From positions 40,241 to 104,240 of the IMG/VR virus record IMGVR_UViG_3300037069_000805: a stretch of 64,000 bases of DNA; one strand, given 5' to 3'. The notes below the pieces were generated by a model. That model was not told where the DNA came from. It saw nothing but the letters and a program-made list of their open reading frames with translations, and searched no databases. Position 1 is the stretch's first letter. Each line of letters begins with the position of its first letter. A program made the translations under genes and the position numbers. The stretch is from a virus. Shown here piece after piece: positions 3,001-64,000 of the stretch.

Positions 3001-4396
3001 CTATTTCTACAGTAGCTTTAGTATTATTAATAATCTTTTGACCTTTTTCTAATAAAGTTATAAAATTAGGTTGTAAATTCTCTTTATTTTGATTAATGAT
3101 ATTAGTTAAAACTTCTTCTACAGTATAACTATATTTTTCTTCAGAATTAAATAATAATTGTTTATTAGATTGAGTATTATCTGTTTTAATATTTGTAGTT
3201 GATGTATTTTCACCAGTAGTAAATATTTCTTCTTTTTTATTTTCATCTAATAATTTATTAAATAATATAGTAGAATTATCTCTTTCATTATCTAAAATAA
3301 CTTCATTCCAAGTATTATCATATTCGTCAGTAATTTGATTAGAATTATAATAATTTTGTAAATTTTTTCTAATTTTATCTTGACTTAATTTTTTAAATGA
3401 TTCCAAACTTTCAATTTGTTTTTCTAAATCATCAATTTTATCTGTAATGTTAAATAATTGATTATCATAAATTTCTTTAGTTATTTCATATTCTAAAGGA
3501 CCAACTCCTTCTGGAGTATTATTATCTATTTTAATATCTCCAATTTTAGAAGTAGTTTTAAAATTTAATAATTGTTTTCTTGCTAATATTAATTTTTTAT
3601 TTAATTCTTCAATTTTATTTTCAAAATATTTATTTATATTTTCAAGTTCTCTTTTAGCTATTTTGTCAGTAATTTTATTATTTAATTTTACAACTTTATT
3701 TGAAATTATAAGTTGGTATAAATCTTTAATTGTAGAATCTTCAGGTATTTTTATATTATCGTTAATTCCAAAAAATTCTTTAATAAAATCTAAAATTTTA
3801 CTTAATATAGAACGTTTAACTTTTAAATCTTCATTTTTAAATTCTTTTTCAATTGCTCTTACAATATATTCTTCTTGTTGCCAAGATTTTGGCATATCGG
3901 AATATGTTTTATTATTTAAAAATGAAGATATTTCTGGATATAATCTTTTAGAATCATTATAAATTTTATTAAATAATTCAGGATTTGAAGAATTTAAATA
4001 AGTTACAAAAGGATGTGATATTTCATGTAAAAATGTACTAGCATTTACTTTGTTTTTATTTAAATTTACAGTATTTGTATTTTTATCATATTCACCATAT
4101 GTTATAAAACCATCTTCTTTATCTTTAAATTCAACAAGGTTTAAATTTACTTTTTTATCTTTTGCAAAATAATTTAAACTTTTAATTATTTTTTCATCAT
4201 TATCTTCATTAATTAAATTTAAATTATTTTGATAATTTATTTCATTAGATTGTTGTAATTCATCAATAGTAGGAAAACTATCTACACCATTTTTATCCTG
4301 AAAGATAGAAATTTTAGCTTTCAGGATAATTGGATTTAAATCTGTTTGTTCTAATAGCTCTTTGTATTGAGCATCATTTATATTTATACAATTCAT
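1..4396 (-). CDS. Giant virion cargo protein with two zincin-like (HExxH) domains; 3' end lies outside the window (>1465 aa)
   Basis: Not in the ORF track because it is truncated. ATG at 4396-4394 overlaps the upstream TGA (ATGA); translation starts MNCININDAQYKELLEQ; motifs FLHEISHP (~4010-4035) and FIHEVVHA...TDEFVAE (~2685-2870); open in the segments I translated by hand; downstream of the vRNAP as in crAss-like cargo cassettes. Confidence 0.8.
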   Translation of the reverse strand, partial: MNCININDAQYKELLEQTDLNPIILKAKISIFQDKNGVDSFPTIDELQQSNEINYQNNLNLINEDNDEKIIKSLNYFAKDKKVNLNLVEFKDKEDGFITYGEYDKNTNTVNLNKNKVNASTFLHEISHPFVTYLNSSNPELFNKIYNDSKRLYPEISSFLNNKTYSDMPKSWQQEEYIVRAIEKEFKNEDLKVKRSILSKILDFIKEFFGINDNIKIPEDSTIKDLYQLIISNKVVKLNNKITDKIAKRELENINKYFENKIEELNKKLILARKQLLNFKTTSKIGDIKIDNNTPEGVGPLEYEITKEIYDNQLFNITDKIDDLEKQIESLESFKKLSQDKIRKNLQNYYNSNQITDEYDNTWNEVILDNERDNSTILFNKLLDENKKEEIFTTGENTSTTNIKTDNTQSNKQLLFNSEEKYSYTVEEVLTNIINQNKENLQPNFITLLEKGQKIINNTKATVEIDTLENMSKRYDYVDSSVAMAYDANLNKIIIAKESLESLSKEQTIESFIHEVVHAITHKALKNPQTFEEREFKKFIEKAFEQHKFVANERGDINSKYGFTNTDEFVAEIFSNPEFQAELRQNKSFWNELKDIIRRLFGLPRTLSNNELIDAALLINKVNDFVENNDNSDFKGFSFEGDIYSPAMFKTVLKDKKEGYYDLNTIDKKITHVINKAKDILDQNINFYNAIGNRTTKGEQQDKFIKFSDKFKETLKALENFDAAKQLEAVSFYTKSLFEDINSLERSFDRKSFTEEEILKTIGHYSKYLDSFTIAKDIQDLLADIKVENKFGLSNDDINEMDDALKHIIGTYDSLKTEYNSYLKKALKLTISNIQYLPELETKWKDQLKIDYKVIPRTESEDVWIARQMNTTYKEDIQNDAESYVNNLIDSPAYDISSGTKFFNDSINTNSHLIQIFNQILNEVKEAINDQVRQKEFELSGLFDKLVKEKGTEDVTKLYKNIIQQDKAGNYYLLGTHNLEFKDKLNKIDSEIDEILKTHTTNSIEFGTKAKEKYTLLKNIDKYENKVNLSDIEKDVLKTFTEIQDLVTDVTFGKQSKKKFVGNKKNNAYYYELPSITKSDLERVLGGDIKGIIKDKWTDLTTIKADDIDFNYRTDNDNNILYNIPVRYSGQIDPKDQSLDLMTVFRLQYLNGINYKEKSKRERELNTITDIAKSKKYYKTQSGKEVLKSIFNKNNPQMLDTGENSNTYKRLQSLMEKNIYDIGHHYAGKLGPVDVNKAIGFMNGSLATIGLSLNKFAATQNILNAKAMMFLEGLSKNVINKTNLAKAEALYFKEFANTMKDLGQPVEKSFINQMNRMFDTFGFDRNSMEAFIKKGVLKSYVNAESLQFMHSGGEHWVQSVLTASVLDSIKVMDADNNYIDKNGNVVDKSKSASLLDMLYIDKEDGILKINDKVIYTTQSLTSKVNEGGKAKINLLIKKKIMDCFGNYDPNTQPEALRHWWGKLFM

Positions 4397-5109
4397 ATTT
4401 TTTCTATTTTAAAACACTCTGTTGAACTACCTAAAAATTTGTTATTAGGAATGTAGTGAAAATTTTTTAGATATTTTATTAATAATTTTTCAGAAGTCCA
4501 AATATTTTCTGGAGTATCTTCTATTTGAGATAACATTTCTAACTTATAACCTGTTTTAGAAAAACCACTATATCTTCTATTTATATTTTTATGTTTAGTT
4601 ATACCTATTTTAAAAAAAGACTCATTTTCATTGTATATATTTAATAAATATAAATAAGCTTTATTATTAATACATATAGCTTTCCAGTTTTTAAATTTGA
4701 AATTATTATAATCTCTTGGATAACATTCTGGACATCCTTTACCTCTTAGAACATTTCTAGCTATCGTTTTAAAATGTCCATGATGATTACAAGTTAAAAT
4801 AACTTCATTCAGAATTCCTCTAAATTCAAGTTTATCAAATGAATATAAATCATTGTAAGCTTCTTTAACATCAAATATATATTTTTCTCTTCCTATTTTT
4901 AATTTAGTCTTTGATTTATTAATATCTCCACATTTTTTACAATTTCTAGAATGTGTTAAAAAATTATTAACAATAATTTCAAAATCACCATGTTTTTTAC
5001 ATGTAATTGTTACTTTATCATTATAAGATATAAAGATACTTTTTGAATAATCATATTTATTTCCATGAGTGTCCTTACATCTTTTAATAAATTCTTCTTG
5101 TGTTATCAT
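4393..5109 (-). CDS. Free-standing putative homing endonuclease (CxxHG/CxxC Zn-binding repeats plus GIY-YIG-like C-terminal domain)
   Basis: Two repeats ITCKKHGDF..CKKC and LTCNHHGHF..CPEC; C-terminal YLY..FFKIGIT..R..TECF; likely start ATG 5109 (MITQEEFIK) just after the RNAP stop, rather than 5190. Confidence 0.75.
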   Translation of the reverse strand: MITQEEFIKRCKDTHGNKYDYSKSIFISYNDKVTITCKKHGDFEIIVNNFLTHSRNCKKCGDINKSKTKLKIGREKYIFDVKEAYNDLYSFDKLEFRGILNEVILTCNHHGHFKTIARNVLRGKGCPECYPRDYNNFKFKNWKAICINNKAYLYLLNIYNENESFFKIGITKHKNINRRYSGFSKTGYKLEMLSQIEDTPENIWTSEKLLIKYLKNFHYIPNNKFLGSSTECFKIEKI

Positions 5110-8100: not shown

Positions 8101-11100
8101 TACCTACTGGATTAATTTGAGCTTTTAAACCGTTAATAATATTTTTATTACCTTCTTGTTCAATTAATTGATTGGCTAAACTATCATAAAATAAAGATAC
8201 ATTATTAATTTTACCATTCTCATCAATACCTAATTCTTTATATAGTTGTTTAACACCTTTATTAGATAATTGTCCAACTATATTATTAATTTTATCAATT
8301 AATTGACTACCAGTTATATCTTCACCTTTATAATGAAACATTTTATCTAAATTAAAAGATAATCCTTGAAATACATTCTTTTGTATCTGAGAACCTGTAT
8401 CAGTATCATGTACACCCTTAGTAGGTAAATCTTGTTGAAGTTTCCAACCTGAATTTAAAAGTTCTTGTTTATTTAAAGTAAAATCTTTTTCTAATTCAGT
8501 TTCATTACCATCTTTATGTAATCTAGTAGTATTTAAAGAACCTACTTTAATACCATCTAATGTAATAACCTCATGTATCTGATCATTATAATGACTAGCT
8601 TCAGTCATTTTATTATACATATTCTCTAAAGATGTTCCTCTAATTAAAGAGGGAATAAGTACAGCTTGTGAATATTTAAGCATTGTAGGAACTCCATCTT
8701 TTACTTCAAAATATACACCTTTTAAAGGTTGCATTACAAATTTTAACTCTTTTTCAGTAAGAGTTTCTTCATTCTTTGTAATTTTATTATATACATGTTC
8801 ATAATTATCATTCCATTTACCCAAACCATTCATAATAAACTTCCATCTTGTAGGAGTTATCCATGCTTGAGCATCTGCAATATTAATATTATTACCCTTA
8901 TATTCTTTACCTTTATATGTAATACTATTAGTAGAACCAATATAATGTGCAGCAATTTCTGGTTTTAATATTTTATTATCAACTAATTCTTGAAAATAAT
9001 CTGTAAATGGTGAGCCACCTTCTACTGAAGCAATTGAAGCAATATTAAAATATTTATCATTAGTATTAAGATATTGACCATCTGTATAAGTAGCAGGTAC
9101 TCTTTTCTTATAATCAACCATATTTTTATAATATGCATAATCACCTGAAAAAGCTTTAGAATATTCTATTTGAGAAATTAAACCATTAATATATACATCT
9201 GCAGCAATTTGCTCTCTTATTTTATAAGATGATAATTGATTTTTATCTGCATATTTTTGATATATAGCACTATCAATAGCATAATTTTCAGTATCTAATT
9301 TATCAGTACCTTTAAATAATTCAATATCTAACATGGTATTTAATGTACCATTAATATTTTCTTTAATATTTTGTTTAATATGTTCTTTAATTGCAATTTT
9401 TATTCTACTTGGAAATGTATTCATTACAGGAAATCCAGTTACAGAATCATATAATATAACATCATTACCTTCTAAATCTTTAATTTTAGGTAATGTGGAT
9501 AACTTTCCTTTATTAAAGTCAACAGATAATGAAGGAAATAAAGCTGATTTAAGACCATTTTTATTACCAAGATGATAATGAATATATAACTTACTATTAT
9601 CTTTGTTTAAATCAGCTTGTTTTATCTCATAAGCTACTTTATTCATCCTATCATACTCATCTATAAAGTAATTATACAATACTTCAATAGCTTCATCATT
9701 AATAATATCGTTTTCAGAATCATAATTTGATTCAATAAATATTTCTTTAGGATATTCTATTAGTTTTTGTTGAGATTTATCTGCTGGAGTAACTGTTCTA
9801 ATAATAGGATTATTATTTTTAACAAAAGATAATAAATTATTAATATAACTAGCAATTTCATCATTAGTAGTTATTTCTTTATTATCTACAGCATTTTTAA
9901 AATCTTCAGTTTCCTGTAAATTATTAAATATACCTACATTAAAATTTTCTAATCTATCTTTTATTACATTATCTTTTTCAGCTGGAGTTAAATATTCTAA
10001 ATCTGAAGCTAATAAATAATTTAATAATTTAGATCTTTTATTAAATGGTGTTGATTCTAAATGTTGTCTAATTAATTCAGGATGTTTTTTCCATTTTTCA
10101 ACCTTAATAGTTAAATAATCTGGTTTACTAAAAACCCATTTGGTAGTTCCTGCAGAAAATATAGTTGATTCAGAACCTTCTGTAAAATATTTTGCTTCAG
10201 CATTAGCTAATTGTTTAAATATATTTTCATATTTTAAAGCATTACCTTCTGAAGGTTTAATATTTTTGTTAAGTATATTTTTGGAAAAGTATTGTAATTT
10301 ATTTATTAAACTATTTGTAGCAAGTTTTATAGAATCTGTATCATATATATCTTCTAGATTATTTCTAAGAAAATAATTCATACCTTCTTCTGTAGTAACT
10401 AAACCTAAATCAGACAATATTTTAACTAAAGGATTTAATTTATGTAATAATTCAGTAGATATTAAATCTTCTTTAACTATTTTAGTATTAAATTCTTGTT
10501 TAAAATCATTAATTTTATCTGAAACTATTTTAAATTTTTCATATTTAAAATTATCGTTATTAAGATATATTTCATTAAATTTAATACCCCATTCTTCCAA
10601 TATTCTAGAAGCTTTGGAATTAGTTTCAGTAACAGGTAATACTCTTTGTGAATAATTAGTTAATAAATTATCTTTAGTATATTGCTTATCTACTTCAAAT
10701 GTATAAAATTCATTTTTTGACAAATCAAATGCTTGTACAAATTTATTCTTAGTATTTAAACTTAAAGGTTTGTTAGTACTTTCTAATATATTAAGTACAT
10801 CTTTAATGAAAGGTTGAAATTCTTTCTCTTTTTCTAGTATACTTATAAATTCATTAAACTTATTTTCATCATCTTTAACTACAACATTATTTAATACTTG
10901 TAATAGATGTCCATATACTTGTTCAAATGTATAAAATGAATTACTATCTAATACATCATCTACCTCATTAACATTTGGTATTAAAGATAACATAAGTTTA
11001 ACATCAGAATTAATATTTTCTTTATATGATCTTTCATATGATGATACATTAAAAGAATGTTCTCTTGTATCATCTTGAACAGTATTCATATCATCAATAT

Positions 11101-11713
11101 TATTTTCATTTTCATTATACTTAATCTTAATAGATTTAAAATAATCTATAACCTCATCTTTAATCTCATCAATATTATCTAATAATTTAGTGATACGTTG
11201 TGATTTGATTTTAGCTATAGGTGTACTAATTGTAGATAATTCTTTAAGTTTATTATGTAAAGTATCTTCTATAAATTTACTAATATTAGTATTACTAGTT
11301 TGATTAAAATCTAAATCTTCAAATTGTTCAACTAATCTAAAATTATTTTTAATATATTGAGCACCTAAAGTTTTCTTAAGTTTATTAATACTATTAGATG
11401 TTAATACTTTAGTTAAACCTTTTTCAGGGAAAAATACTCTTTCATTATTTTTATTTAAATAATAATGTCTATTATAGTTTTCATCTTTAAATAACTTAGG
11501 TTCACCATTATCATCAACTCTGTCTTGATTAATTTCCTTAACTTCATTCTGATAATCTTCTTCATAATTACCAAATTGATTTATAAAACTTTCAGATTTA
11601 AATTGTGTATAATAACGATTAGCTAACAATTCATCATTACTAGTTAATTTAAGTAAACTATTAAATAAAATAGATTCATTATCATTTGTATTTGTTTGTC
11701 TTTTACAACTCAT
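5111..11713 (-). CDS. Virion-packaged single-chain DNA-dependent RNA polymerase (phi14:2 gp66-like)
   Basis: 2200 aa; GYRIPNQG and GSDYDIDK catalytic motif (7559-7573), AFVDIAKDP; size and position match the crAss-like vRNAP. Confidence 0.92.
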   Translation of the reverse strand: MSCKRQTNTNDNESILFNSLLKLTSNDELLANRYYTQFKSESFINQFGNYEEDYQNEVKEINQDRVDDNGEPKLFKDENYNRHYYLNKNNERVFFPEKGLTKVLTSNSINKLKKTLGAQYIKNNFRLVEQFEDLDFNQTSNTNISKFIEDTLHNKLKELSTISTPIAKIKSQRITKLLDNIDEIKDEVIDYFKSIKIKYNENENNIDDMNTVQDDTREHSFNVSSYERSYKENINSDVKLMLSLIPNVNEVDDVLDSNSFYTFEQVYGHLLQVLNNVVVKDDENKFNEFISILEKEKEFQPFIKDVLNILESTNKPLSLNTKNKFVQAFDLSKNEFYTFEVDKQYTKDNLLTNYSQRVLPVTETNSKASRILEEWGIKFNEIYLNNDNFKYEKFKIVSDKINDFKQEFNTKIVKEDLISTELLHKLNPLVKILSDLGLVTTEEGMNYFLRNNLEDIYDTDSIKLATNSLINKLQYFSKNILNKNIKPSEGNALKYENIFKQLANAEAKYFTEGSESTIFSAGTTKWVFSKPDYLTIKVEKWKKHPELIRQHLESTPFNKRSKLLNYLLASDLEYLTPAEKDNVIKDRLENFNVGIFNNLQETEDFKNAVDNKEITTNDEIASYINNLLSFVKNNNPIIRTVTPADKSQQKLIEYPKEIFIESNYDSENDIINDEAIEVLYNYFIDEYDRMNKVAYEIKQADLNKDNSKLYIHYHLGNKNGLKSALFPSLSVDFNKGKLSTLPKIKDLEGNDVILYDSVTGFPVMNTFPSRIKIAIKEHIKQNIKENINGTLNTMLDIELFKGTDKLDTENYAIDSAIYQKYADKNQLSSYKIREQIAADVYINGLISQIEYSKAFSGDYAYYKNMVDYKKRVPATYTDGQYLNTNDKYFNIASIASVEGGSPFTDYFQELVDNKILKPEIAAHYIGSTNSITYKGKEYKGNNINIADAQAWITPTRWKFIMNGLGKWNDNYEHVYNKITKNEETLTEKELKFVMQPLKGVYFEVKDGVPTMLKYSQAVLIPSLIRGTSLENMYNKMTEASHYNDQIHEVITLDGIKVGSLNTTRLHKDGNETELEKDFTLNKQELLNSGWKLQQDLPTKGVHDTDTGSQIQKNVFQGLSFNLDKMFHYKGEDITGSQLIDKINNIVGQLSNKGVKQLYKELGIDENGKINNVSLFYDSLANQLIEQEGNKNIINGLKAQINPVGIPQAYGKIMNMFASIVLDRVVKIKTNGGSFIQMSDFGLNKTEANEKGVLWTPWSENKVQPYTVQKDGIGNILKGPNGKPLIRPAGILIPGSLIAQHIPNYRDYTNKPEILFGTLNPETNEYEGGLIDYKILNNIIGYRIPNQGISSNDAFQIAGILPEGMGDTIVAYTGITTKTGSDYDIDKMYMMIPSFNKVDGKLVYKDSLENDLIEAYKAVFTSPDVLNDLMTPIDFDFIKNDILAFNKEDETSDTYHFDGLKDIYIKAQYKAGKAGVGMEANSLVDHVRGTMANLRFNGYYLGVGFKNELGETKFDEEFSEELSDEDLKLYSKKYNELSDSKISASDLESLKKIKIANSLSAILNAFVDIAKDPYITRGNWNTATTNVGNMLLRAGAHPFQVNAFLKQPILKSFIQFQNNKESKINNDTGNIENKFKLDVLRNSKDFQLQLPFGDRNISVADLHKLVFKNSFETDYKKLTYNEINTKLQSAKKFVTEDGERTKKALFTKEQLIQYKESFDRFINIVSTRQASFVKSQQIEPSYFPEFNSLLLNDTPEFQMKVLSTFFKLKEDAKKMKKNIDGSTQDVSGIGSTVTSLVARNNIINDLLNNKDKGQLLGFETKLERNGKPTLLGHYTNNSIFDMINMVVKNPKLFFMTQSSIINNFDIISNDVKGTKLMDEDFGKDLEQKYLSYVLSGFEGIKTSSPEYTHLTSNDFVKEFSAFKDSKSNRYAILKELDLSKNKDDKLFITLSNRRKSADIQQELTKSWLDMLNNDKEMAENLVKYSYITSGFNMNKGQFFTLIPNEFFIEKDINGYLNSRELKHIDTNFIEQLYQNNYDNSLYVPNVFTNQILRGSKDFGFVLDSQLVNKVRRYIKQNDNLFKLIGYDQHHDPIYVRTYTKGFKDKQGNKYFEYSFDENNRSLLAQNDIANKEGLLKYYNETLLPEVAYDIDMNETERSILPSNEKTSIEPKDNTFNELSEQEYNNLSEEEKATILWQKKSC

Positions 11714-56986: not shown

Positions 56987-57206
56987 CTTTATACCTATCT
57001 ACTAACATTGTAGTGTAACTACCACTATCAAATGTTCCATTAATATCTATATACATTCTAACATTTATTTTAGAACCATCTGGTAATATAACTTTATATT
57101 TATATTGTGTTATATCTTCAGCCCAATCTAAAAAACCAACTGGTAAATCATCTCTTATAACTATAGATGGTGTAAACCAATCATCATATTTACATATTTC
57201 TTCCAT
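56970..57206 (-). CDS. Hypothetical protein
   Basis: ORF track. Confidence 0.55.
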   Translation of the reverse strand: MEEICKYDDWFTPSIVIRDDLPVGFLDWAEDITQYKYKVILPDGSKINVRMYIDINGTFDSGSYTTMLVDRYKDEKGI

Positions 57207-57918
57207 TTCTTAATTCTGGATATTTATAATTAATATTAAATTTCTTTTTATTATTTTCTTCAAGAATTTGTCTAACTCTTTCTCTACTAATATTTAAGTA
57301 TTTTGATAATGTAACTGAATTATCAAATTCTAAAGTTTTATTATTCTCTATTAAAATTATTTTCTTTTTTAGTTTATTTAATCTATTTTTTTCTTTTATT
57401 TCACTATTATAATTTTTCCATGATAATATAGTTTCTAGATTTTCATAGTAAAATTTTTTTGAAACTAATCTATATTTACCACATATTATACAATTATTAT
57501 TACATCTTTGAGATAATAATTTTCTTTTTAAAAATCTACTTGTTTCAGAAATAGATGGTAACTCTATAATTATTTTACCATTTAAATCAAGTAAGTATAC
57601 TTCTATTGATAAAACATCTGCGCCACCACCATTTGTAATATATGTTAAATTGTAAAGTTCATTGCGATTAAATGAATTAATATATTCTTGTTCTTTTTCT
57701 AAAAGTTCATATTTATTTAATTGTTCACAAATTTCTAATATTTCAAATTTAAAATTTAATATACCATATTTGTTATAAGATGCTTGTAAATGACTATTTC
57801 TATGAGTATTGTTTTTTAAATCTGAAAAATGTTGTTTACATCTTTTTAACATATCATTACTAGAACCAATATAAATTTTATTTGTTTCTAAATTTACTAT
57901 TTTATATATACCTTTCAT
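57190..57918 (-). CDS. GIY-YIG homing endonuclease with C-terminal HTH
   Basis: MKGIYKIVN..IYIGSS; LNISRERVRQI. Confidence 0.85.
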   Translation of the reverse strand: MKGIYKIVNLETNKIYIGSSNDMLKRCKQHFSDLKNNTHRNSHLQASYNKYGILNFKFEILEICEQLNKYELLEKEQEYINSFNRNELYNLTYITNGGGADVLSIEVYLLDLNGKIIIELPSISETSRFLKRKLLSQRCNNNCIICGKYRLVSKKFYYENLETILSWKNYNSEIKEKNRLNKLKKKIILIENNKTLEFDNSVTLSKYLNISRERVRQILEENNKKKFNINYKYPELRNGRNM

Positions 57919-58065: not shown

Positions 58066-58608
58066 TTATATATTGTTATTATGTTTGGCAACTAATTTAT
58101 TTAATCTTGCAGATTTAACAAAGAAAGATACTTGATCTTTAGTAAATCCATAATCTACAATATATTTATGATATGATATTCTTTTATCTTTTTTATTTTT
58201 TAAACAATATTCAATATCTTCTAAAATTAATTTTACTTTACTTTTATTACAGTTTTCAGTATTTGGTATTGATTTATTTTGTCTAAACTCTTGATTTGAT
58301 TTTGAATTAAGTTGTATAGCTTTAAATTCAGCTAATTTAATATCAATAAATTGAGGAATATTTCTAAGAGAACCAATTATAATAGATTCTATATTAATAT
58401 TTCTTAAATCAAACCATTCATTATTTGAATTTGTTTTTACTTCTTTAAATAACTTATGTAATACTTTTTCATATTTATCTTTTACGTCAAATAAATGAGT
58501 GAAGGATAATTTATTAGGATTACTAGTTTGTAATTCTTTAATCCTATTATAAGGATTTTTACTTTTACCTATTTTAGTATAGGTACCATCTGATATAAAA
58601 TACACCAT
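58066..58608 (-). CDS. T5orf172/GIY-YIG-superfamily nuclease-domain protein
   Basis: VYFI..TKIGKS..RIKELQTSNP..EKVLH..NEWF. Confidence 0.8.
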   Translation of the reverse strand: MVYFISDGTYTKIGKSKNPYNRIKELQTSNPNKLSFTHLFDVKDKYEKVLHKLFKEVKTNSNNEWFDLRNINIESIIIGSLRNIPQFIDIKLAEFKAIQLNSKSNQEFRQNKSIPNTENCNKSKVKLILEDIEYCLKNKKDKRISYHKYIVDYGFTKDQVSFFVKSARLNKLVAKHNNNI

Positions 58609-58619
58609 TATATATAATA

Positions 58620-58910
58620 TTTAATTAATACTTAATATCTAATTTTAGTTATTAGATATAAGAATCCCTATATGCAAACTGGTGTGTATTGCATAAACCG
58701 TCATATTTTAACTTCTTCTTGATTATAGACAGTGCATTATCCAAGATTTAACTGTTATTTAATAACATTTTTAGTTCGTGACACTTTTTGTTAAATCAAT
58801 CTATAAACTTGAATTGTTGGGAACGATTGGATTCCAACTTCTTACTTAACCCTTAGATACTGGAGCCAATTTAGGGTGTCCAGCAGAGCATCTTTCAAAG
58901 TAAGATATTT
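58620..58910 (-). ncRNA. Candidate structured RNA / 5' leader (~290 nt)
   Basis: No ORF; directly after a promoter; several stems and a possible pseudoknot found by eye. Confidence 0.45.
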
Positions 58911-58918
58911 TAATAGTA

Positions 58919-58950
58919 CAAAGATAAACAATTTAATTGACAATTCCTAA
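58919..58950 (-). promoter_or_regulatory. Bacteroidota sigma70-type promoter
   Basis: TTAGGA-N18-TATCTTTG. Confidence 0.8.
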
Positions 58951-58986
58951 TAAAAAGTGAATTATTTTCAATTTATTTCCTTTTAG

Positions 58987-59328
58987 TTATAGCATATTTG
59001 TGTTTTTAATAAACCTTTCAACTTGTTCAAATACCCATTCTGTAAAATAAGCTTGTGGTTCATCATTATCAAAATCTGGTTTCATACAAATATATTTAAA
59101 TAACATATTGGTTATATGTACTGACTCATGACATATTAAAGAATTCGATATTTCTTCATTTGGAAAGGCTATATAGAATTTACTATTCTCTTGAAAGGTA
59201 AAAGCTCCATAATTACAACCTTTATCTACTTTTAAACTATATTTACCATCTAATTCTTCTAAATTATCTACTTGTATAAGTACTAATGTTCCAACATATA
59301 TAGGTATTTTAATTTCTTCTATTCTCAT
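58987..59328 (-). CDS. Small HExxH metallopeptidase-like protein
   Basis: ICHESVH...NDEPQAY. Confidence 0.65.
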   Translation of the reverse strand: MRIEEIKIPIYVGTLVLIQVDNLEELDGKYSLKVDKGCNYGAFTFQENSKFYIAFPNEEISNSLICHESVHITNMLFKYICMKPDFDNDEPQAYFTEWVFEQVERFIKNTNML

Positions 59329-59343
59329 AATATTAAATTTTTA

Positions 59344-59375
59344 CAAAGATAATGAATTTATTCCATATATCCTAA
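59344..59375 (-). promoter_or_regulatory. Bacteroidota sigma70-type promoter
   Basis: TTAGGA-N18-TATCTTTG. Confidence 0.8.
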
Positions 59376-59525
59376 TTTTTAATGGATTATTTTTAAATTT
59401 TTTATAAAATTTTTTCAGAAAGTTTTTTATTGATGTGTATACTGACTAATCTAACTTCAACCCCTACCCTCTTTAAGGTTTGGGGATATACCCGTACACA
59501 AATTGTTAAATTAAAACACAAGATT

Positions 59526-59975
59526 ATGTCATTTAAACCTAGAAAAGTCGAGTACAATGGTACAGAAAAAATTGTTTTAGTAGGTAATGCTAAATTGAAA
59601 TCACAATTACCAACATCTGAAAAGTCAGTACTATCTTATGATAATGCTGAGGGTGTTACTAAGAATTACAAGTTAGCTAATATAGCTGTTGACTTTGGTA
59701 ATGGTCAGACTACTGATATGTTAGCATCAGTACCTGAGAAAATCTATGCTAATAATGAATTTAAAGCTGGAGAGTCTTATCTTACTACTATTGAGAAAGT
59801 AGAAGATAGAAAGAATCCAGGTAAATACATCTTATTGGCACGTATGTCTGCTTTATCAGCTCTTGAGGTTAATGAAGTAGCTATTAACCATGCTATCAAC
59901 AACTTGTTTGAAATGGAAGCTGTAGAAGATCCTATTGCTGAAGTTAAATTAGCTGGTGCTGAAGTAGAAGAGTAA
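59526..59975 (+). CDS. First plus-strand gene; beta-rich protein with acidic tail
   Basis: In-frame ATG at 59526 (MSFKPRK) preferred over the TTG at 59430. Confidence 0.75.
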   Translation: MSFKPRKVEYNGTEKIVLVGNAKLKSQLPTSEKSVLSYDNAEGVTKNYKLANIAVDFGNGQTTDMLASVPEKIYANNEFKAGESYLTTIEKVEDRKNPGKYILLARMSALSALEVNEVAINHAINNLFEMEAVEDPIAEVKLAGAEVEE

Positions 59976-59987
59976 TTAAAGGATTAA

Positions 59988-60410
59988 ACCACACAAAAAA
60001 TCTAAGGAAGGATAGTGATATCAGAGTTTAAGAAACTAGTTTAGATTGAGTGTGGTCTTTCTTTTTATAACATGTGATACTTATGTATTAGGTGTTAGTT
60101 TGTAGTTTTACCAATTAGTAATATATAGATTATGATTTCATTTCATCATTTCATTGCATTAATTAACAACTATAATCTTTTACTAGTTGGTCAGCTACTT
60201 ATTTTAAACTTATAAACTCTCATCCAGCGTTACCAGCAATAAGTTGCTATCTGTTGTAAGTCAGATGTGAGAGTTTTTATATATTATGTGATAGTTAAAG
60301 TATTGATTATGTGATAGTTATGTTTGTTTTATAGGTATGATTATTGATGTAATTACTTGATTATCATCATCTCAATCAATAAAAACACTATCATTAATCA
60401 CCAAATCACA
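59988..60410 (+). ncRNA. Tandem stem-loop array, part 1 (four hairpins)
   Basis: Inverted repeats 59988-60056, 60110-60191, 60214-60276, 60287-60410; strand assumed from flanking genes. Confidence 0.5.
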
Positions 60411-60449
60411 CAATTATTATTTTAATATAGCACATTTAAACAAAGTATT

Positions 60450-60662
60450 ATGACATCAACTGATAAAAAAGAATACAATATATTACAAAGAAAATGTCAA
60501 GAAGCTTACATTAAACACTTCGATAGAGGTAATTTTGGAAGAATTCATGGTAAATCTGTCAATTCATTTAATAATAGATTAGCTAAAATGCATCAATTTT
60601 GTATTGAAAAGCAATTAAATAATAGTCGATGGTTACGAATACAACCATTACAACTGTATTAA
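60450..60662 (+). CDS. Hypothetical 70-aa protein
   Basis: ORF track; AT-rich ATT-ATG start context. Confidence 0.6.
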   Translation: MTSTDKKEYNILQRKCQEAYIKHFDRGNFGRIHGKSVNSFNNRLAKMHQFCIEKQLNNSRWLRIQPLQLY

Positions 60663-60700
60663 TTTACAAAAACAAAACTAACTGACAAAAACAAAATATT

Positions 60701-60880
60701 ATGAAATACGCAATTATAATTGATGTAAGAAATAGAAAATATCTTACTGGATTCACAAATATTAGAATTGAAAAAGAAACTATGCTTACAGGTGGAACTA
60801 AATATACTGTTGAATTAAGAGAAATGACAGGTATATTCTTAACACTTGAAGGTGATGCTAAAGAATATTTTAGCAATTAA
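60701..60880 (+). CDS. Hypothetical 59-aa protein (not in ORF track)
   Basis: MKYAIIIDVRNRKYLTG...KEYFSN*; A-rich leader; same strand as neighbours. Confidence 0.65.
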   Translation: MKYAIIIDVRNRKYLTGFTNIRIEKETMLTGGTKYTVELREMTGIFLTLEGDAKEYFSN

Positions 60881-60888
60881 CAACATTT

Positions 60889-61690
60889 TAGTCAGTCAAT
60901 TACAGATAATGCTGGGTTGACTGATTATAAAATATCATGGTAATTCATCATCTAACAACTTGTCAATAGCTCTGTTAGATGATTAGCCATATCTTATAAA
61001 ACTAATACATTAATACTGCATAAATTAGAGAGAGGTGACATATGAGAGTCTAACTCATCCTTTCGATGGACATAATTTATAGCATTAGTATTAGTTTTTA
61101 AAATACATGTTGAGAACAAGTTGATTAATTAGTAGGATGTTACAAGAAAATTGTATACAGCATCATACGTGCACAATCAACTTGTTTAACAATATAAAAG
61201 AATTAAATTTTAATGATGGTAGAATTACCTTCACGCAAGTCTTACTCATAAGTGACAGGTCTTCCTAGGAATAAGAAACTGTATCTTGAGGGAAATCTAT
61301 AACTAATAAGGATTAAAAATCTAATTAGAAAAAAGAAAGTACAGAACATATTATATAACAATAATATGTATAAGAGAAATTTAATTCTTTTTTAACAAAA
61401 TGTCACTGACGCATTATAAGATCAGGTGAGTTATACTATTCGTAGTTTAACAAAAAGGTAAGACGTTGCCTAAATAGATGAATTTGTTGTATGTATACTC
61501 TTGTAGGAACATTCTAAGTAAAACTCAGCCATACGATAGTATGAGAAAATGTCCACTGTAGGTGCTGATCGACAAGGCAAATATCAATTAGACAAGAATA
61601 GAATTTATTTAGTTAAATTCTATATCTACTAGCATTGATGAAATAAGGTAAAAAGCATCCCTTATATTTTTAATCGAAATTGTTAAATCT
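60889..61690 (+). ncRNA. Tandem stem-loop array, part 2
   Basis: Inverted repeats 60889-60927, 60937-60990, 60998-61098, 61108-61191, 61196-61391 (perfect 15 bp closing stem), more hairpins to ~61690. Confidence 0.55.
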
Positions 61691-61704
61691 AAAGATAAAT
61701 AGTT

Positions 61705-61899
61705 ATGAAAAGTTTAGAAATTCTTCAACAGCAATTAATTGAGGCTCAAGAAGAATTAAAACCTCTTCTTAAATATAATATGGATAGATATTTGAATAAA
61801 TGTACAGGTGATTTAACATTATTAAGTAGAATAAATCCATTAATAACAAGAATTTATAATCTTAAAATAAATATTAATCAATTAAAACAGAGATTATGA
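61705..61899 (+). CDS. Hypothetical coiled-coil protein
   Basis: ORF track; ATGA coupling to the next gene. Confidence 0.6.
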   Translation: MKSLEILQQQLIEAQEELKPLLKYNMDRYLNKCTGDLTLLSRINPLITRIYNLKININQLKQRL

Positions 61900-62123
61900 A
61901 AACAATACAAAAACAACATCAGATTGTATTAGTTCCTACTGATAAACCTGTAATAGGTGGATTAAATAAAAGAGGAAATAGTATATCTGGACCCATTAAT
62001 TGCCAAGGCTCAGTTCATTGTATAACCGAGAATATAGTTAAAAGAAAAGGTTATACCGTTGATTTAGATATACCTCAACATTTATATATTGTTGACAGTA
62101 GTGAGATTAAAGAATTAACATAA
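61896..62123 (+). CDS. Hypothetical protein; possible N-terminal half of a split gene
   Basis: Ends QHLYIVDSSEIKELT*; TAATG overlap with the HNH gene. Confidence 0.6.
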   Translation: MKTIQKQHQIVLVPTDKPVIGGLNKRGNSISGPINCQGSVHCITENIVKRKGYTVDLDIPQHLYIVDSSEIKELT

Positions 62124-62608
62124 TGGAAGAATGGAAACAAATTGAAGATTATCCTAATTATGAAGTCAATAATGCAGGAGTTATTAGAACTACCAAAAAT
62201 GAATTTACAAGAAAGGAAAGAATCTTAAAGATAAAGAAATCCAATAATGGTTATGTAAGAGTTGGTCTTTGGAAAAATAATAGAGTAAGCTTTAAATCTG
62301 TTCACAGATTAGTAGCTATATATTTTATTCCAAATCCTGACAATCTTCCTGAAGTTAATCATTTAGATGGTGACAAAGAAAATTGTAATGATTGGAATTT
62401 AGAATGGTCAAGCCATATTGATAACTCTAAACACGCTTCTGAAACAGGTTTAATTGCTTCAAGAGAAAGACACGGAAAAACAAATCTAACATCACAAGAT
62501 GTGAAAGATATTAGAGCCTCTGAGCTAAAAGTAACAGAACTTTGTGAAAAGTATAATTTACATAATACAACTATTTATTCAATTAAAAGAGGAGAAACAT
62601 GGAAGTAA
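62123..62608 (+). CDS. NUMOD4-HNH homing endonuclease
   Basis: EEWKQIEDYPNYEVNNAG (NUMOD4); VHRLVA..FIPNP..VNHLDGDKENC..NLEW (HNH). Confidence 0.92.
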   Translation: MEEWKQIEDYPNYEVNNAGVIRTTKNEFTRKERILKIKKSNNGYVRVGLWKNNRVSFKSVHRLVAIYFIPNPDNLPEVNHLDGDKENCNDWNLEWSSHIDNSKHASETGLIASRERHGKTNLTSQDVKDIRASELKVTELCEKYNLHNTTIYSIKRGETWK

Positions 62609-63069
62609 TACAACACAAAGGTAAATGGTATCTTAAATCTAATACAGGTTATAGAGAGATTGTCGCAACAACTAATCCTAAACTTAATAAAGATATAATT
62701 TTCGATAAGAACTATTTTGACGATGGATTTATAAAAGGTTTACCAAAACCAACAGACCAATTCATTCAACAATGGATAGATAAAGGTTATCCTAAGTTTA
62801 TTAATGTGGAATGCGAAGAAACTAAAGTTTATAGATATTTAACTAAAGAAGAACAAATTAAAAGGTATGGTTATAAAGCATCATCTACTCCCTATATGAA
62901 TAATGTTTATTCTAATGAACTTAAAATCTCAAAAAATAATACAATCACTTGTAGTTTTATTGAAGATGATTGGGATAGTATTTTAAATCCTATAAGTGAG
63001 GCTAATAAAGATGATTTAATTAAATATCTTAAAAGATATTTTAACTCACCAACAAAGAAAACTGTGTGA
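62599..63069 (+). CDS. Hypothetical protein; possible C-terminal half of a split gene
   Basis: EIVATTNPKL..LPKPTDQFIQQW..LKISKNNTIT. Confidence 0.6.
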   Translation: MEVIQHKGKWYLKSNTGYREIVATTNPKLNKDIIFDKNYFDDGFIKGLPKPTDQFIQQWIDKGYPKFINVECEETKVYRYLTKEEQIKRYGYKASSTPYMNNVYSNELKISKNNTITCSFIEDDWDSILNPISEANKDDLIKYLKRYFNSPTKKTV

Positions 63070-63898
63070 TATTCAGTTACCCTAATATCAATAATTAACT
63101 TTAAATGTTAATATATAAACTTCTAACTATTGTGGTGAATTAGTCAAAGCCTGTAAAGGACAAGAGTTTGAATCCTCTTATAATTACAATAGTTATGCTT
63201 TAAACTTCTAATACAGGTGATGCTGCACAGCCCTGAATAAAAGAATTCGCTATGGGAGAGCTATTAGAAGTTTATCCTTTAAAACTCTTATAATAATTGG
63301 TCATTATGTTATATCCTGAAAGTGTCGACTTTATTAGGATATGTAATGTGAATTAACACACTGATTTAAAGATAAGAGTTTTATTAATATAGGCTAAACA
63401 TTGATCCTATACAGTATATCAAAATATAGTTCGATTAAGTTCTTGAATTATTATTATTTTGATTAGTATGAAGATATATACAGTAATGTATAATGTGTTG
63501 TTCTCTTGAGAAAGGAATATTAATAAAAGCTGACGGTAAGTAGACAGGAAACTGTAAAAGCTATAAAAACAAGGAAGTACTACTTACAGGCAATAGAGTG
63601 TCAGTTATTTGAAGCTCTACAACACAAATGAGTTCTCAGCATGACCCTATATTATCTTTTAAGGGCTGGCTATACCCCGAAATATAGCGACAAGTAATAA
63701 TATAGGGTGCTAAAAAATAATATAATTTATTTACTTGCTTGAAAATAAATACTAATTCCTGATAACAACTTTTGAACAAAAGAGTTAGAAGCTATTCAGA
63801 GCTGTTGTTTATTAGAGAGATATATACTCATTAAGACTGCCTTGAAATAGTTGGATGAAAGCAGTACCAACAATATATTCCAACACTGAATTGTTGGA
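63067..63898 (+). ncRNA. Second tandem structured-RNA array
   Basis: Perfect 10-13 bp closing stems at 63124-63195, 63201-63274, 63280-63383, 63644-63708, plus multi-stem modules at 63528-63619 and 63836-63898. Confidence 0.55.
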
Positions 63899-63927
63899 CA
63901 AGTAAATTTTTTATTAACTAAATTATT

Positions 63928-64000
63928 ATGAAGAAACTATTATTTATACTATTTATAGTATTAACAACATCATGTGCATCCAAAGGAGGCAACATACATC
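63928..64000 (+). CDS. Lipoprotein, 5' end only
   Basis: MKKLLFILFIVLTTSCASKGG: basic N-terminus, hydrophobic core, lipobox TSC. Confidence 0.65.
   Translation, partial: MKKLLFILFIVLTTSCASKGGNIH

What the first reader, a model, noticed from the sequence alone, without database searches (positions are those of the whole stretch)
59988..61690. Early-region array of back-to-back stem-loop modules (array 1)
Seen: ~1.2 kb of non-coding DNA in an otherwise gene-packed genome, tiled by at least nine hairpins often separated by only 5-20 nt. Closing stems include AACAAGTTGATT/AATCAACTTGTT (12 bp), AAAACTAATAC/GTATTAGTTTT (11 bp) and AAAAGAATTAAATTT/AAATTTAATTCTTTT (15 bp, enclosing ~165 nt). The interiors differ and carry sub-hairpins, so this is not a sequence repeat. 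Inference: a polycistronic cassette of small structured RNAs cut out at their stems (decoys or anti-defence RNAs), or ssDNA hairpins read by the vRNAP.
Basis: partly seen in the sequence, partly recalled or inferred. Interest (0 to 1): 0.75.

Follow-up and report, generated by a model that had tools for sequence, protein, structure and literature searches.

The report
Mosaic hairpin spacer in phage early region
The "array" is a real, unusually hairpin-rich pair of gene-free stretches at the start of the early genes of an uncultured crAss-like phage, but it is a patchwork: one hairpin is almost invariant in about 30 related phage contigs, and most of the others are unique to this phage and of unknown use.

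Summary
The quoted stems exist, and the region folds better than shuffles. The 824-nt stretch 60881-61704 has z -5.9 on the + strand and -4.5 on the - strand. Four of the genome's 22 perfect inverted repeats of 11 bp or more lie within 450 nt.

It is not one 1.2-kb array. It is two gene-free stretches, 59976-60449 and 60881-61704, split by two small orphan ORFs, and the modules differ in kind.
- **M1 (60877-60937)** is single-copy and near-invariant in about 30 IMG/VR contigs of phi14:2-like crAss phages. It starts at the stop codon of unrelated upstream ORFs and pairs well only on the + strand.
- **M6a (61398-61440)** is conserved in six related contigs.
- **H4 (60214-60276)** keeps only the termini of an uncatalogued RNA family that I call "X".
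- **M2-M5 (60947-61394)**, four tiled perfect palindromes, form a lineage-specific 460-nt insert with no homologue found.
- **61441-61580** is not structured beyond chance.

No tRNA, Rfam family or ribozyme matches. In the cultured relative phi14:2, long early intergenic regions are the most abundant early transcripts. The sister array 2 is homologous to one of them; array 1 is not.

Best reading: an early accessory hot spot punctuated by cis-acting RNA hairpins. The scan saw a look-alike array in another crAss-like genome, resolved there as an expanded twister ribozyme. None was found here.

The parts
59985..60062 (+). T1: long irregular hairpin followed by a U-rich run, directly after the stop of the 149-aa first rightward gene (59526-59975). 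Likely its terminator.
   Evidence: Inverted repeat I13. Fold z -1.9 (+) and -2.7 (-). A relative with the homologous gene has a canonical GC hairpin plus T-run at the same place (L003). The consensus terminator scan did not flag it.
60062..60320 (.). Three copies of a roughly 20-nt direct repeat (60062-60083, 60276/8-60297, 60301-60320) in AT-rich DNA upstream of the 70-aa ORF. Candidate operator or promoter-region repeats.
   Evidence: Direct-repeat families D1 and D2. A similar repeated word lies at the same place in L003. Function not tested.
60101..60200 (+). H3: 100-nt hairpin with a roughly 12-bp closing stem.
   Evidence: z -4.37 (+) and -3.03 (-), 0-1 of 200 shuffles as good. No homologue in relatives.
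60214..60276 (+). H4: stem-closed 63-nt module. Its first 13 nt and last 11 nt equal the termini of the 'X' RNA family of related phages, but it lacks that family's conserved interior. At best a truncated or decayed copy.
   Evidence: Regex and listing. X alignment A4. The covariance model R2 does not detect H4 at E<=10. Fold z -2.7 (+) and -3.0 (-).
60450..60662 (+). ORF of 70 aa (orphan).
   Evidence: ORF list. No PHROG family. No tblastn hit in related loci.
60701..60880 (+). ORF of 59 aa (orphan). Its TAA stop is the first three bases of the conserved M1 element.
   Evidence: ORF list. No PHROG or tblastn hit. In 17 of 27 distinct related contexts an unrelated ORF ends at the same TAA.
60877..60937 (+). 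M1: conserved element made of a linear 9-nt word (TAACAAYAC, holding the stop codon), a 16-bp hairpin (11 bp, two U.G pairs, a bulged A, 3 bp) with hexaloop RURAUG, and an A/U-rich 3' tail. Single copy per genome.
   Evidence: 92-98% identity in 8 of 21 relatives by unbiased blastn, while the flanks do not align. Exact 37-nt core in 28 IMG/VR contigs, plus 2 variants. Model R1 finds no second copy, and none in phi14:2 or four complete relatives. Fold -17.5 (+) against -10.6 (-), z -6.0. All 16 pairs kept in 25 distinct sequences. Absent from 185,579 prokaryote genomes and from Rfam.
60947..60983 (.). M2: perfect 11-bp palindrome with a 15-nt loop.
   Evidence: I15. z -4.7 (+) and -4.4 (-). No homologue.
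60998..61098 (.). M3: 101-nt module closed by a perfect 11-bp stem.
   Evidence: I17. z -3.0 (+) and -4.6 (-). No homologue.
61108..61194 (.). M4: module closed by a perfect 12-bp stem (61115-61186, 72 nt) with an imperfect outer extension and one inner hairpin.
   Evidence: I11. z -5.1 (+) and -4.0 (-). ARAGORN finds no tRNA. The arms occur nowhere else in IMG/VR.
61193..61394 (.). M5: 202-nt multibranch module closed by a 15-18-bp stem.
   Evidence: I1. z -3.7 (+) and -3.75 (-). No homologue.
61398..61440 (+). M6a: conserved word with a weak bulged hairpin. In relatives it lies directly after M1 (3 contigs) or about 670 nt upstream of M1 (3 contigs). This shows that 60931-61394 is an insertion in this lineage.
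   Evidence: blastn 82-88% identity. Listings. Alignment A3, where the next stem shows compensatory changes among relatives. The fold itself is not above chance, z 0.0.
61441..61580 (.). Spacer with no structure beyond chance.
   Evidence: z +0.8 (+) and -0.2 (-).
61582..61640 (.). M8: nested hairpin with an inner perfect 10-bp stem (61598-61623).
   Evidence: I23. z -4.0 (+) and -3.6 (-).
61644..61672 (+). Small 6-bp hairpin followed by a U-rich run, about 35 nt before the next ORF (61705).
   Evidence: Seen in the MFE fold of the whole stretch. Not tested separately.

Best explanation
The finding covers the first 2 kb of the rightward (early) gene block of a 104-kb phi14:2-like crAss-like phage. 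This is an accessory hot spot: gene content differs between relatives, while a few short cis-acting elements stay fixed. The array is therefore a mosaic. It holds the terminator hairpin of the first gene, repeat-bearing AT-rich DNA, a decayed copy of a stem-closed RNA family (X), two orphan ORFs, the conserved hairpin M1, a lineage-specific 460-nt insert of four tiled perfect palindromes (M2-M5), the conserved word M6a, an unstructured spacer, and two terminal hairpins.

Proposed working (inferred): the + strand is transcribed early as part of long rightward transcripts. M1 acts in that RNA as a sequence-specific signal at the 3' end of the preceding small ORF. It could mark RNA processing and 3'-end protection, or termination or antitermination. 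It also serves as the short conserved joint at which neighbouring cassettes are exchanged by recombination.

M2-M5 are then transcribed as stem-closed filler or cargo. They may block exonucleases or terminate transcription, but there is no evidence of a conserved function.

Shown: the structures, the conservation pattern, the strand asymmetry of M1, the insertion, and the absence of known families. Inferred: transcription, the RNA-level role, and the recombination-joint role.
For: Genome context:
- The major capsid protein is 63% identical to phi14:2 and 78-93% to many IMG/VR contigs.
- The window is the right part of a 104,240-bp record.

Mosaic and hot spot:
- Only M1 aligns across complete relatives.
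- ORFs upstream of M1 are unrelated but end at the same TAA in 17 of 27 contexts. Downstream lies an ORF within 8-32 nt (10 contexts) or 100-1000 nt of gene-free DNA.
- In relatives that gene-free DNA holds a tRNA gene, tmRNA-like pieces or an X element. A Hatchet ribozyme and complete tmRNA genes lie elsewhere in their early regions.
- The small ORFs here have no homologues.

M1 as RNA on the + strand.

Insertion of M2-M5: M1 and M6a are contiguous in L115, L120 and L136.

Transcription by analogy:
- phi14:2 early intergenic regions are the most abundant early, persistent, rightward transcripts.
- Array 2 of this window shares an exact 24-nt word with that phi14:2 region. Its upstream ORF is 26% identical to phi14:2 g004.
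Against: - No expression data exist for this uncultured phage, and array 1 itself has no homologue in phi14:2.
- M1 has no U-tract, so it is not a canonical intrinsic terminator. No partner protein tracks its presence or absence.
- M1 variation is too small for true covariation: 0 double changes. Most copies were found by exact-pattern search, so their invariance is partly by construction.
- Perfect Watson-Crick stems and equal folding on both strands for M2-M5 fit a DNA-level origin as well as an RNA role.
Confidence: 0.45

Rival explanations
1. Dedicated polycistronic small-RNA cassette. M1-M5 and the later hairpins are separate stable small RNAs cut out at their closing stems, for example by RNase III, and act as decoys or anti-defence RNAs.
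For: - Tiled modules are separated by 0-16 nt and have long closing stems.
- Module sizes of 37-202 nt with strong z-scores.
- Early regions of relatives carry bona fide RNA genes: tmRNA, tRNA, a Hatchet ribozyme and the X family.
- phi14:2 makes abundant early non-coding RNAs of unknown function.
Against: - M2-M5 are unique to this genome and single-copy, so there is no sign of purifying selection.
- They show no strand bias in folding.
- No ribozyme, tRNA-like or other processing signal was found.
- M1, the conserved module, usually lies in a 60-90-nt spacer between two ORFs rather than in an RNA array.
Confidence: 0.2
2. DNA-level elements. The palindromes work as extruded or single-stranded DNA hairpins: promoters or pause sites for the injected virion RNA polymerase, a replication-origin or primosome site, or recombination crossover sites.
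For: - The virion RNA polymerase of phi14:2 transcribes denatured DNA in vitro.
- The region lies where the cumulative GC skew turns (about 59-60 kb) and holds direct repeats.
- M2-M5 have perfect Watson-Crick stems that fold equally on both strands.
- M1 lies exactly at cassette boundaries.
- The word ACTGAC is clustered here: 4 of its 8 + strand copies in the genome lie at window 59120-61405, and the - strand copy at 60896 lies in M1.
Against: - M1's three fixed G.U pairs and its G.U-creating substitutions favour RNA over DNA pairing.
- M1 is single-copy with a 16-bp stem and 6-nt loop, unlike N4 promoter hairpins.
- The phi14:2 study found no common motif upstream of early transcripts.
- The GC-skew turn coincides with the switch in gene orientation, so it does not mark an origin by itself.
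- phi14:2 annotates a replisome-organizer gene about 12 kb into the early block, a likelier origin neighbourhood.
Confidence: 0.15
3. Apart from M1 and M6a, the hairpins are neutral by-products. They would be recombination scars or template-switch palindromes that build up in a hyperplastic, AT-rich spacer and have no function.
For: - The background of perfect 10-bp inverted repeats is high in this 25% G+C genome: 148 in 104 kb.
- M2-M5 have no conservation and no strand bias.
- They form an insertion.
- Most complete relatives lack such clusters.
Against: - The local excess is large: 4 repeats of 11 bp or more in 0.45 kb against 0.21 per kb genome-wide.
- The stretch folds at z -5.85.
- A second cluster (array 2) overlaps an RNA region that is expressed in phi14:2.
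Confidence: 0.15

Closest known systems
Early long non-coding RNAs of Cellulophaga phage phi14:2 (g004-g005 and g005-g006 junctions; Drobysheva et al., bioRxiv 10.1101/2020.03.07.982082)
   Same: Same phage lineage, same rightward early block, and long gene-free stretches among small early ORFs. Those of phi14:2 are transcribed rightward from the earliest time point at very high, persistent level, with function unknown.
   Different: Array 1 shares no sequence with them. The homologue of the first phi14:2 RNA is array 2 of this window (63067-63898), shown by a 24-nt identical word plus a syntenic g004-like ORF. The second phi14:2 RNA is a tmRNA, which this phage encodes elsewhere.
Intercistronic hairpins of phage early operons: T7 RNase III sites, lambda nut (boxA + boxB), T4-type PeSL cassettes (from my own knowledge, not tested here)
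   Same: M1 is a roughly 50-nt irregular hairpin in a short spacer between small early genes. A conserved linear word sits just 5' of the hairpin, as boxA sits before boxB. The neighbouring genes are shuffled at this element, as proposed for PeSLs.
   Different: M1 is single-copy per genome and far more sequence-conserved than T7 RNase III sites. It has no promoter consensus as in PeSLs. No N-like partner protein was identified. Cleavage and antitermination were not tested.
Self-cleaving ribozymes at phage gene-cassette joints
   Same: Stem-closed structured units in the early region of crAss-like phages. A relative carries a Hatchet ribozyme in the spacer that corresponds to 59976-60449. Genes are swapped exactly at the conserved element.
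   Different: No ribozyme model matches here, even at E<=10. M1 is a plain bulged hairpin without the loops and pseudoknot partners that twister needs.
N4 virion-RNA-polymerase hairpin promoters (from my own knowledge)
   Same: A phage with an injected giant RNA polymerase that uses single-stranded templates in vitro, and a conserved hairpin in the early region.
   Different: N4 promoters have 5-7-bp stems and 3-nt loops, occur in several copies, and lie upstream of early genes. M1 has 16 bp and a 6-nt loop, is single-copy, abuts the stop codon of an ORF, and has RNA-type G.U pairs.

Membership tests
tRNA / tmRNA | Cloverleaf or tRNA-like domain detectable by ARAGORN or Rfam RF00005/RF00023 | tested here: not met
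   ARAGORN finds no gene in the window. Rfam finds nothing in 58500-64000 at E<=1 or in 59976-61704 at E<=10. The phage's tmRNA lies elsewhere in the genome.
Any Rfam 15 family (4227 models, including hammerhead, twister, twister-sister, pistol, Hatchet) | Covariance-model match near the gathering score | tested here: not met
   Only chance hits of 14-23 bits to eukaryotic snoRNA and miRNA models. RF03160 finds nothing in this genome or four relatives at E<=10.
Expanded twister ribozymes of crAss-like phages (lead from earlier notes of this scan) | P1-P2-P4 stems with the conserved L1 and L4 bases and two pseudoknots, as reviewed in PMC5408937 | tested here: inconclusive
   The standard model fails, as it would for expanded forms. 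By eye neither M1 nor the X element shows the complementary C-run/G-run and GC/GC pseudoknot partners. No expanded-twister model was available to run.
phi14:2 early lncRNA-1 | Sequence homology and synteny with the g004 homologue | tested here: not met
   Sensitive blastn of 58600-64000 against phi14:2 1-9000 hits only 63618-63641, which is array 2. The g004-like ORF (62599-63069) precedes array 2, not array 1.
'X' stem-closed RNA family of related phages (uncatalogued) | Closing stem plus a conserved 5' word and a conserved 3' hairpin | tested here: not met
   H4 shares only the 13-nt 5' and 11-nt 3' termini. Model R2 does not report it at E<=10.
Intrinsic (rho-independent) terminator | G+C-rich stem followed by a U-tract | tested here: inconclusive
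   The consensus scan finds none in 58500-62500. T1 (59985-60062) and the hairpin at 61644-61672 are followed by U-rich runs but have weak or irregular stems. M1 has no U-tract.
N4-type virion-RNAP hairpin promoter | Short 5-7-bp stem with a 3-nt loop, several copies, upstream of early genes | tested here: not met
   M1 has 16 bp and a 6-nt loop, is single-copy, and lies at the 3' end of an ORF. Promoter activity itself cannot be tested with these tools.
MITE / REP-BIME-like repeated palindromic elements | Many copies per genome; terminal inverted repeats with target-site duplication (MITE) | tested here: not met
   Each module is unique in the genome. No clear duplications flank M2-M4. A possible 7-8-nt direct repeat at M5 overlaps its own stem (D5).
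RNase III processing site (T7-type) | Irregular helix of about two turns in an intercistronic spacer of a polycistronic early RNA, cleaved by RNase III | not testable with these tools
   The geometry is compatible for M1: 16 bp with a bulge, between ORFs. Cleavage is untested.

The most novel reading that the evidence does not exclude
M1 is the recognition hairpin of a crAss-specific machine, for example a stop, pause or anti-pause signal for the injected virion RNA polymerase, or the crossover site of a cassette-exchange system. The tiled palindromes inserted right behind it are non-coding anti-defence cargo (decoy RNAs) delivered into an early-expressed hot spot.
Probability: 0.1. Interest if true: 0.8.

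Novelty: new member of a known kind. Interest (0 to 1): 0.4.

Why it matters
crAss-like phages are among the most abundant phages known, yet how their injected RNA polymerase starts and stops early transcription is unknown. The role of their abundant early non-coding RNAs is also unknown.

M1 is a single-copy, phage-specific hairpin. It is nearly invariant across contigs whose capsid proteins are only 79-88% identical, and it sits exactly where early gene cassettes are swapped. That makes it a concrete, testable candidate for an early-transcript signal or recombination joint.

The result also warns that hairpin arrays in these genomes are mosaics. Only a minority of the stems are under selection.

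Tried and rejected
**Homologue searches**
- tRNA/tmRNA and all Rfam families: nothing.
- Twister-P1 model in this genome and four relatives: nothing.
- Hidden coding under code 4 or TAG=Q: no long frame.
- GenBank phages by distant blastn: no match, not even M1.
- Paralogues inside the genome: none.
- M4 arms in IMG/VR: none.
- M1 in 185,579 prokaryote genomes: none.

**Routes to relatives**
- Relatives through the upstream 149-aa gene: only three proteins and one 2.7-kb contig.

**Specific ideas tested**
- Y-RNA/Ro idea: no TROVE protein in the genome, and no RNA-related Pfam domain in nine larger early ORFs plus the 149-aa first gene.
- A protein partner of M1 by presence/absence across 7 M1-positive and 4 M1-negative complete genomes: no ORF tracks it.
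- M1 as coding sequence: the variable loop triplet reads I/V/M in one frame, but the conserved TAA ends the upstream ORFs in another frame, and those ORFs are unrelated.
- The phi14:2 hit of the M1 model (24 bits) lies inside gene g025 and is chance.
- MITE, integron attC and replication-origin readings: considered and judged unsupported (see the membership table and the rival explanations).
Full report
**Context.** The window is bases 40241-104240 of a 104,240-bp IMG/VR virus record rated complete. G+C is about 25%. The gene layout is that of a crAss-like phage: giant ORFs and structural genes on the minus strand up to about 59.3 kb, then small ORFs on the plus strand. The major capsid protein is 63% identical to Cellulophaga phage phi14:2 (Crassvirales, Steigviridae) and 78-93% identical to at least 80 IMG/VR contigs. 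The finding therefore lies at the very start of the rightward early block.

**Observation.** The quoted stems are all present. The span is not one non-coding stretch. ORFs of 70 and 59 aa (60450-60662, 60701-60880) split it into 474 nt and 824 nt, and no longer frame opens under TGA=W or TAG=Q.
- The 824-nt stretch folds at z -5.85 on the plus strand and -4.50 on the minus strand. The 474-nt stretch reaches only -2.5 on both strands.
- Single modules give z from -3.0 to -6.0. The exceptions are 61398-61436 and 61436-61580, which are at chance.
- Perfect inverted repeats of 10 bp are common in this AT-rich genome, 148 in 104 kb. Those of 11 bp or more with at least two G/C number only 22. Four of them are tiled in 60947-61391 and four more lie in 63115-63708. 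The rate in 12 related genomes is 0.09-0.26 per kb.
- The hairpin excess is therefore real.

**Known families.** ARAGORN finds no tRNA. Rfam 15 gives nothing at E<=1 over 58500-64000, and only chance hits at E<=10 over the region itself. The twister-P1 model finds nothing in this genome or four relatives. Elsewhere the genome holds a tmRNA and a DUF805b motif.

**Comparative anatomy.** An unbiased blastn of 59400-62130 against 21 related records shows that almost nothing aligns. The exception is a 52-57-nt piece, 60877-60937 (M1), at 92-98% identity in eight relatives. More sensitive searches confirm this.
- An exact-pattern scan finds the 37-nt core once in each of 28 IMG/VR contigs. A scan that fixes only the apical 17 nt adds two true variants.
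- A covariance model finds no second copy in any genome. It finds no copy in phi14:2 or in complete relatives G005, G008 and G009, and only a weak 22-bit hit (E 0.03) in G002. The weak phi14:2 hit lies inside a gene.
- M1 is absent from GenBank phages and from 185,579 prokaryote genomes.

**M1 structure.** M1 is a linear word TAACAAYAC followed by a hairpin of 11 bp, two U.G pairs, a bulged A and 3 bp, with a hexaloop that varies at two positions.
- On the plus strand it folds at -17.5 kcal/mol (z -6.0), against -10.6 on the minus strand.
- All 16 pairs are kept in 25 distinct sequences. The four stem substitutions seen (G.U to G-C, G.U to A-U, A-U to G.U, U-A to U.G) all preserve plus-strand pairing.
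- There are no double compensatory changes. Most copies came from pattern searches, so this is consistency rather than proof.

**M1 context.** In 17 of 27 distinct contexts an ORF of 45-176 aa ends exactly at the TAA of M1, and in seven more within 26 nt. These ORFs are unrelated to one another.
- Downstream, an ORF starts 8-32 nt after M1 in ten contexts.
- In others there are 100-1000 nt of gene-free DNA. This holds the M6 element, a tRNA, tmRNA-like pieces or an X element.
- In several relatives the small ORF before M1 is preceded by a conserved leader containing TTAACTGACTAAA. That word is complementary to the 5' arm of M1. The window has a weaker version at 60678-60692.
- No ORF of this genome tracks the presence of M1 across seven M1-positive and four M1-negative complete genomes.

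**The other modules.**
- *M6a:* 61398-61440 is 82-88% identical to a word that follows M1 directly in L115, L120 and L136, and lies about 670 nt upstream of M1 in L119, L123 and L133. The next stem of that element shows compensatory changes among relatives. Hence 60931-61394, that is M2-M5, is an insertion specific to this lineage.
- *M2-M5:* these have no homologue in any related contig, in GenBank phages, in the rest of this genome or (for the M4 arms) in IMG/VR. They fold equally well on both strands.
- *H4:* 60214-60276 shares its first 13 and last 11 nt with a family I call X. X has a closing stem, a conserved 5' word and a conserved 3' hairpin around a variable insert. It occurs in 35 IMG/VR contigs and is not in Rfam. 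The X model does not detect H4, so H4 is at best a truncated copy.
- *T1:* this hairpin follows the first gene, where a distant relative has a canonical terminator.

**Link to what is known.** The phi14:2 study reports that two long early intergenic regions are transcribed rightward from the earliest time point, more strongly than most genes and persistently, with function unknown. It also reports that early transcripts made by the virion polymerase share no upstream motif, and that the polymerase transcribes denatured DNA.
- I find that the second of those regions is a tmRNA.
- The first is the homologue of this window's array 2. They share an identical 24-nt word, and the ORF before array 2 is 26% identical to phi14:2 g004.
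- Array 1 has no counterpart there.
- Early regions of relatives also carry a Hatchet ribozyme in the spacer that corresponds to 59976-60449, plus tmRNAs and tRNAs.

**Earlier notes of this scan.** They describe a look-alike array of back-to-back stem-closed units in another crAss-like genome, resolved there as an expanded twister ribozyme. They also describe twisters acting as gene-cassette joints. I used these as leads. I found no twister features here, but M1 shows the same behaviour as a joint.

**Interpretation.** The best-supported reading (0.45) is an early accessory hot spot whose variable ORFs and non-coding inserts are punctuated by a few conserved cis-acting RNA elements.
- M1 most likely acts in the plus-strand transcript at the 3' end of the preceding ORF. 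Candidate roles are processing or protection, or termination or antitermination. It may double as a recombination joint.
- M2-M5 are lineage-specific, stem-closed filler or cargo.
- The rivals are a dedicated small-RNA cassette (0.2), DNA-level hairpins for the virion polymerase, replication or recombination (0.15), and neutral palindromes (0.15).
- All functional statements are inferences. No expression data exist for this phage.

Noticed in passing
window 63067-63898 (array 2) and 62599-63069; L104 (phi14:2) 2905-3589: Array 2 shares an exact 24-nt word (63618-63641) with the phi14:2 g004-g005 intergenic region (3183-3206) and with three relatives. The ORF before it is 26% identical to phi14:2 g004. 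Array 2 is therefore the homologue of the highly expressed phi14:2 early lncRNA.
   Followed up: partly
L104 (phi14:2) 4031-4502: The second highly transcribed early 'long non-coding RNA' region of phi14:2 contains a tmRNA gene (ARAGORN; Rfam 46 bits, just under the gathering score of 47). The preprint text I read does not name it.
   Followed up: partly
L152-L184, L120, L125 and others; window 60214-60276 and 63282-63381 share its closing stem: 'X' is an uncatalogued stem-closed RNA family in 35 IMG/VR contigs, one exact-pattern match per contig. It has an 8-9-bp closing stem with C-G/U-A covariation, an invariant 5' word and an invariant 3' hairpin whose loop is complementary to part of the 5' word, around a 25-100-nt variable insert. 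It is not in Rfam. It also occurs in three MAG contigs that are probably mis-binned phage DNA.
   Followed up: partly
L110 (G011) 10180-11170: The 1-kb gene-free stretch after M1 in this relative holds a tmRNA-type T-arm and 3' acceptor end about 430 nt upstream of a tmRNA-type 5' end. This suggests a circularly permuted (two-piece) tmRNA gene (partial Rfam hit).
   Followed up: no
L109 (G003) 824-974, minus strand of the locus: A Hatchet self-cleaving ribozyme (75 bits) lies in the spacer between the first early gene and the small ORFs. This is the position that corresponds to window 59976-60449.
   Followed up: partly
window 59397-59497: The leader of the first rightward gene is 68-76% conserved in relatives even where the gene behind it is different. 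It contains a C-run/G-run hairpin (about 59456-59485) and the word ACTGACTAA.
   Followed up: no
window 58906-59011 and 59321-59410: A 70-100-nt element is repeated twice here and 2-4 times in each relative. It lies just upstream (minus strand) of leftward genes and carries a Bacteroidota-type TAnnTTTG motif. These are probably host-polymerase promoters of the middle/late class described for phi14:2.
   Followed up: no
window 57190-57918, 58066-58608, 62123-62608: Three homing-endonuclease-type genes (GIY-YIG, an unknown/homing type, HNH) flank the region. This fits a recombination-prone hot spot.
   Followed up: no
window 59120-61405: The hexamer ACTGAC occurs 8 times on each strand in 104 kb. 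Four of the + strand copies lie at window 59120-61405, and the - strand copy at 60896 lies in the 5' arm of M1. This may be an early-region regulatory word.
   Followed up: partly
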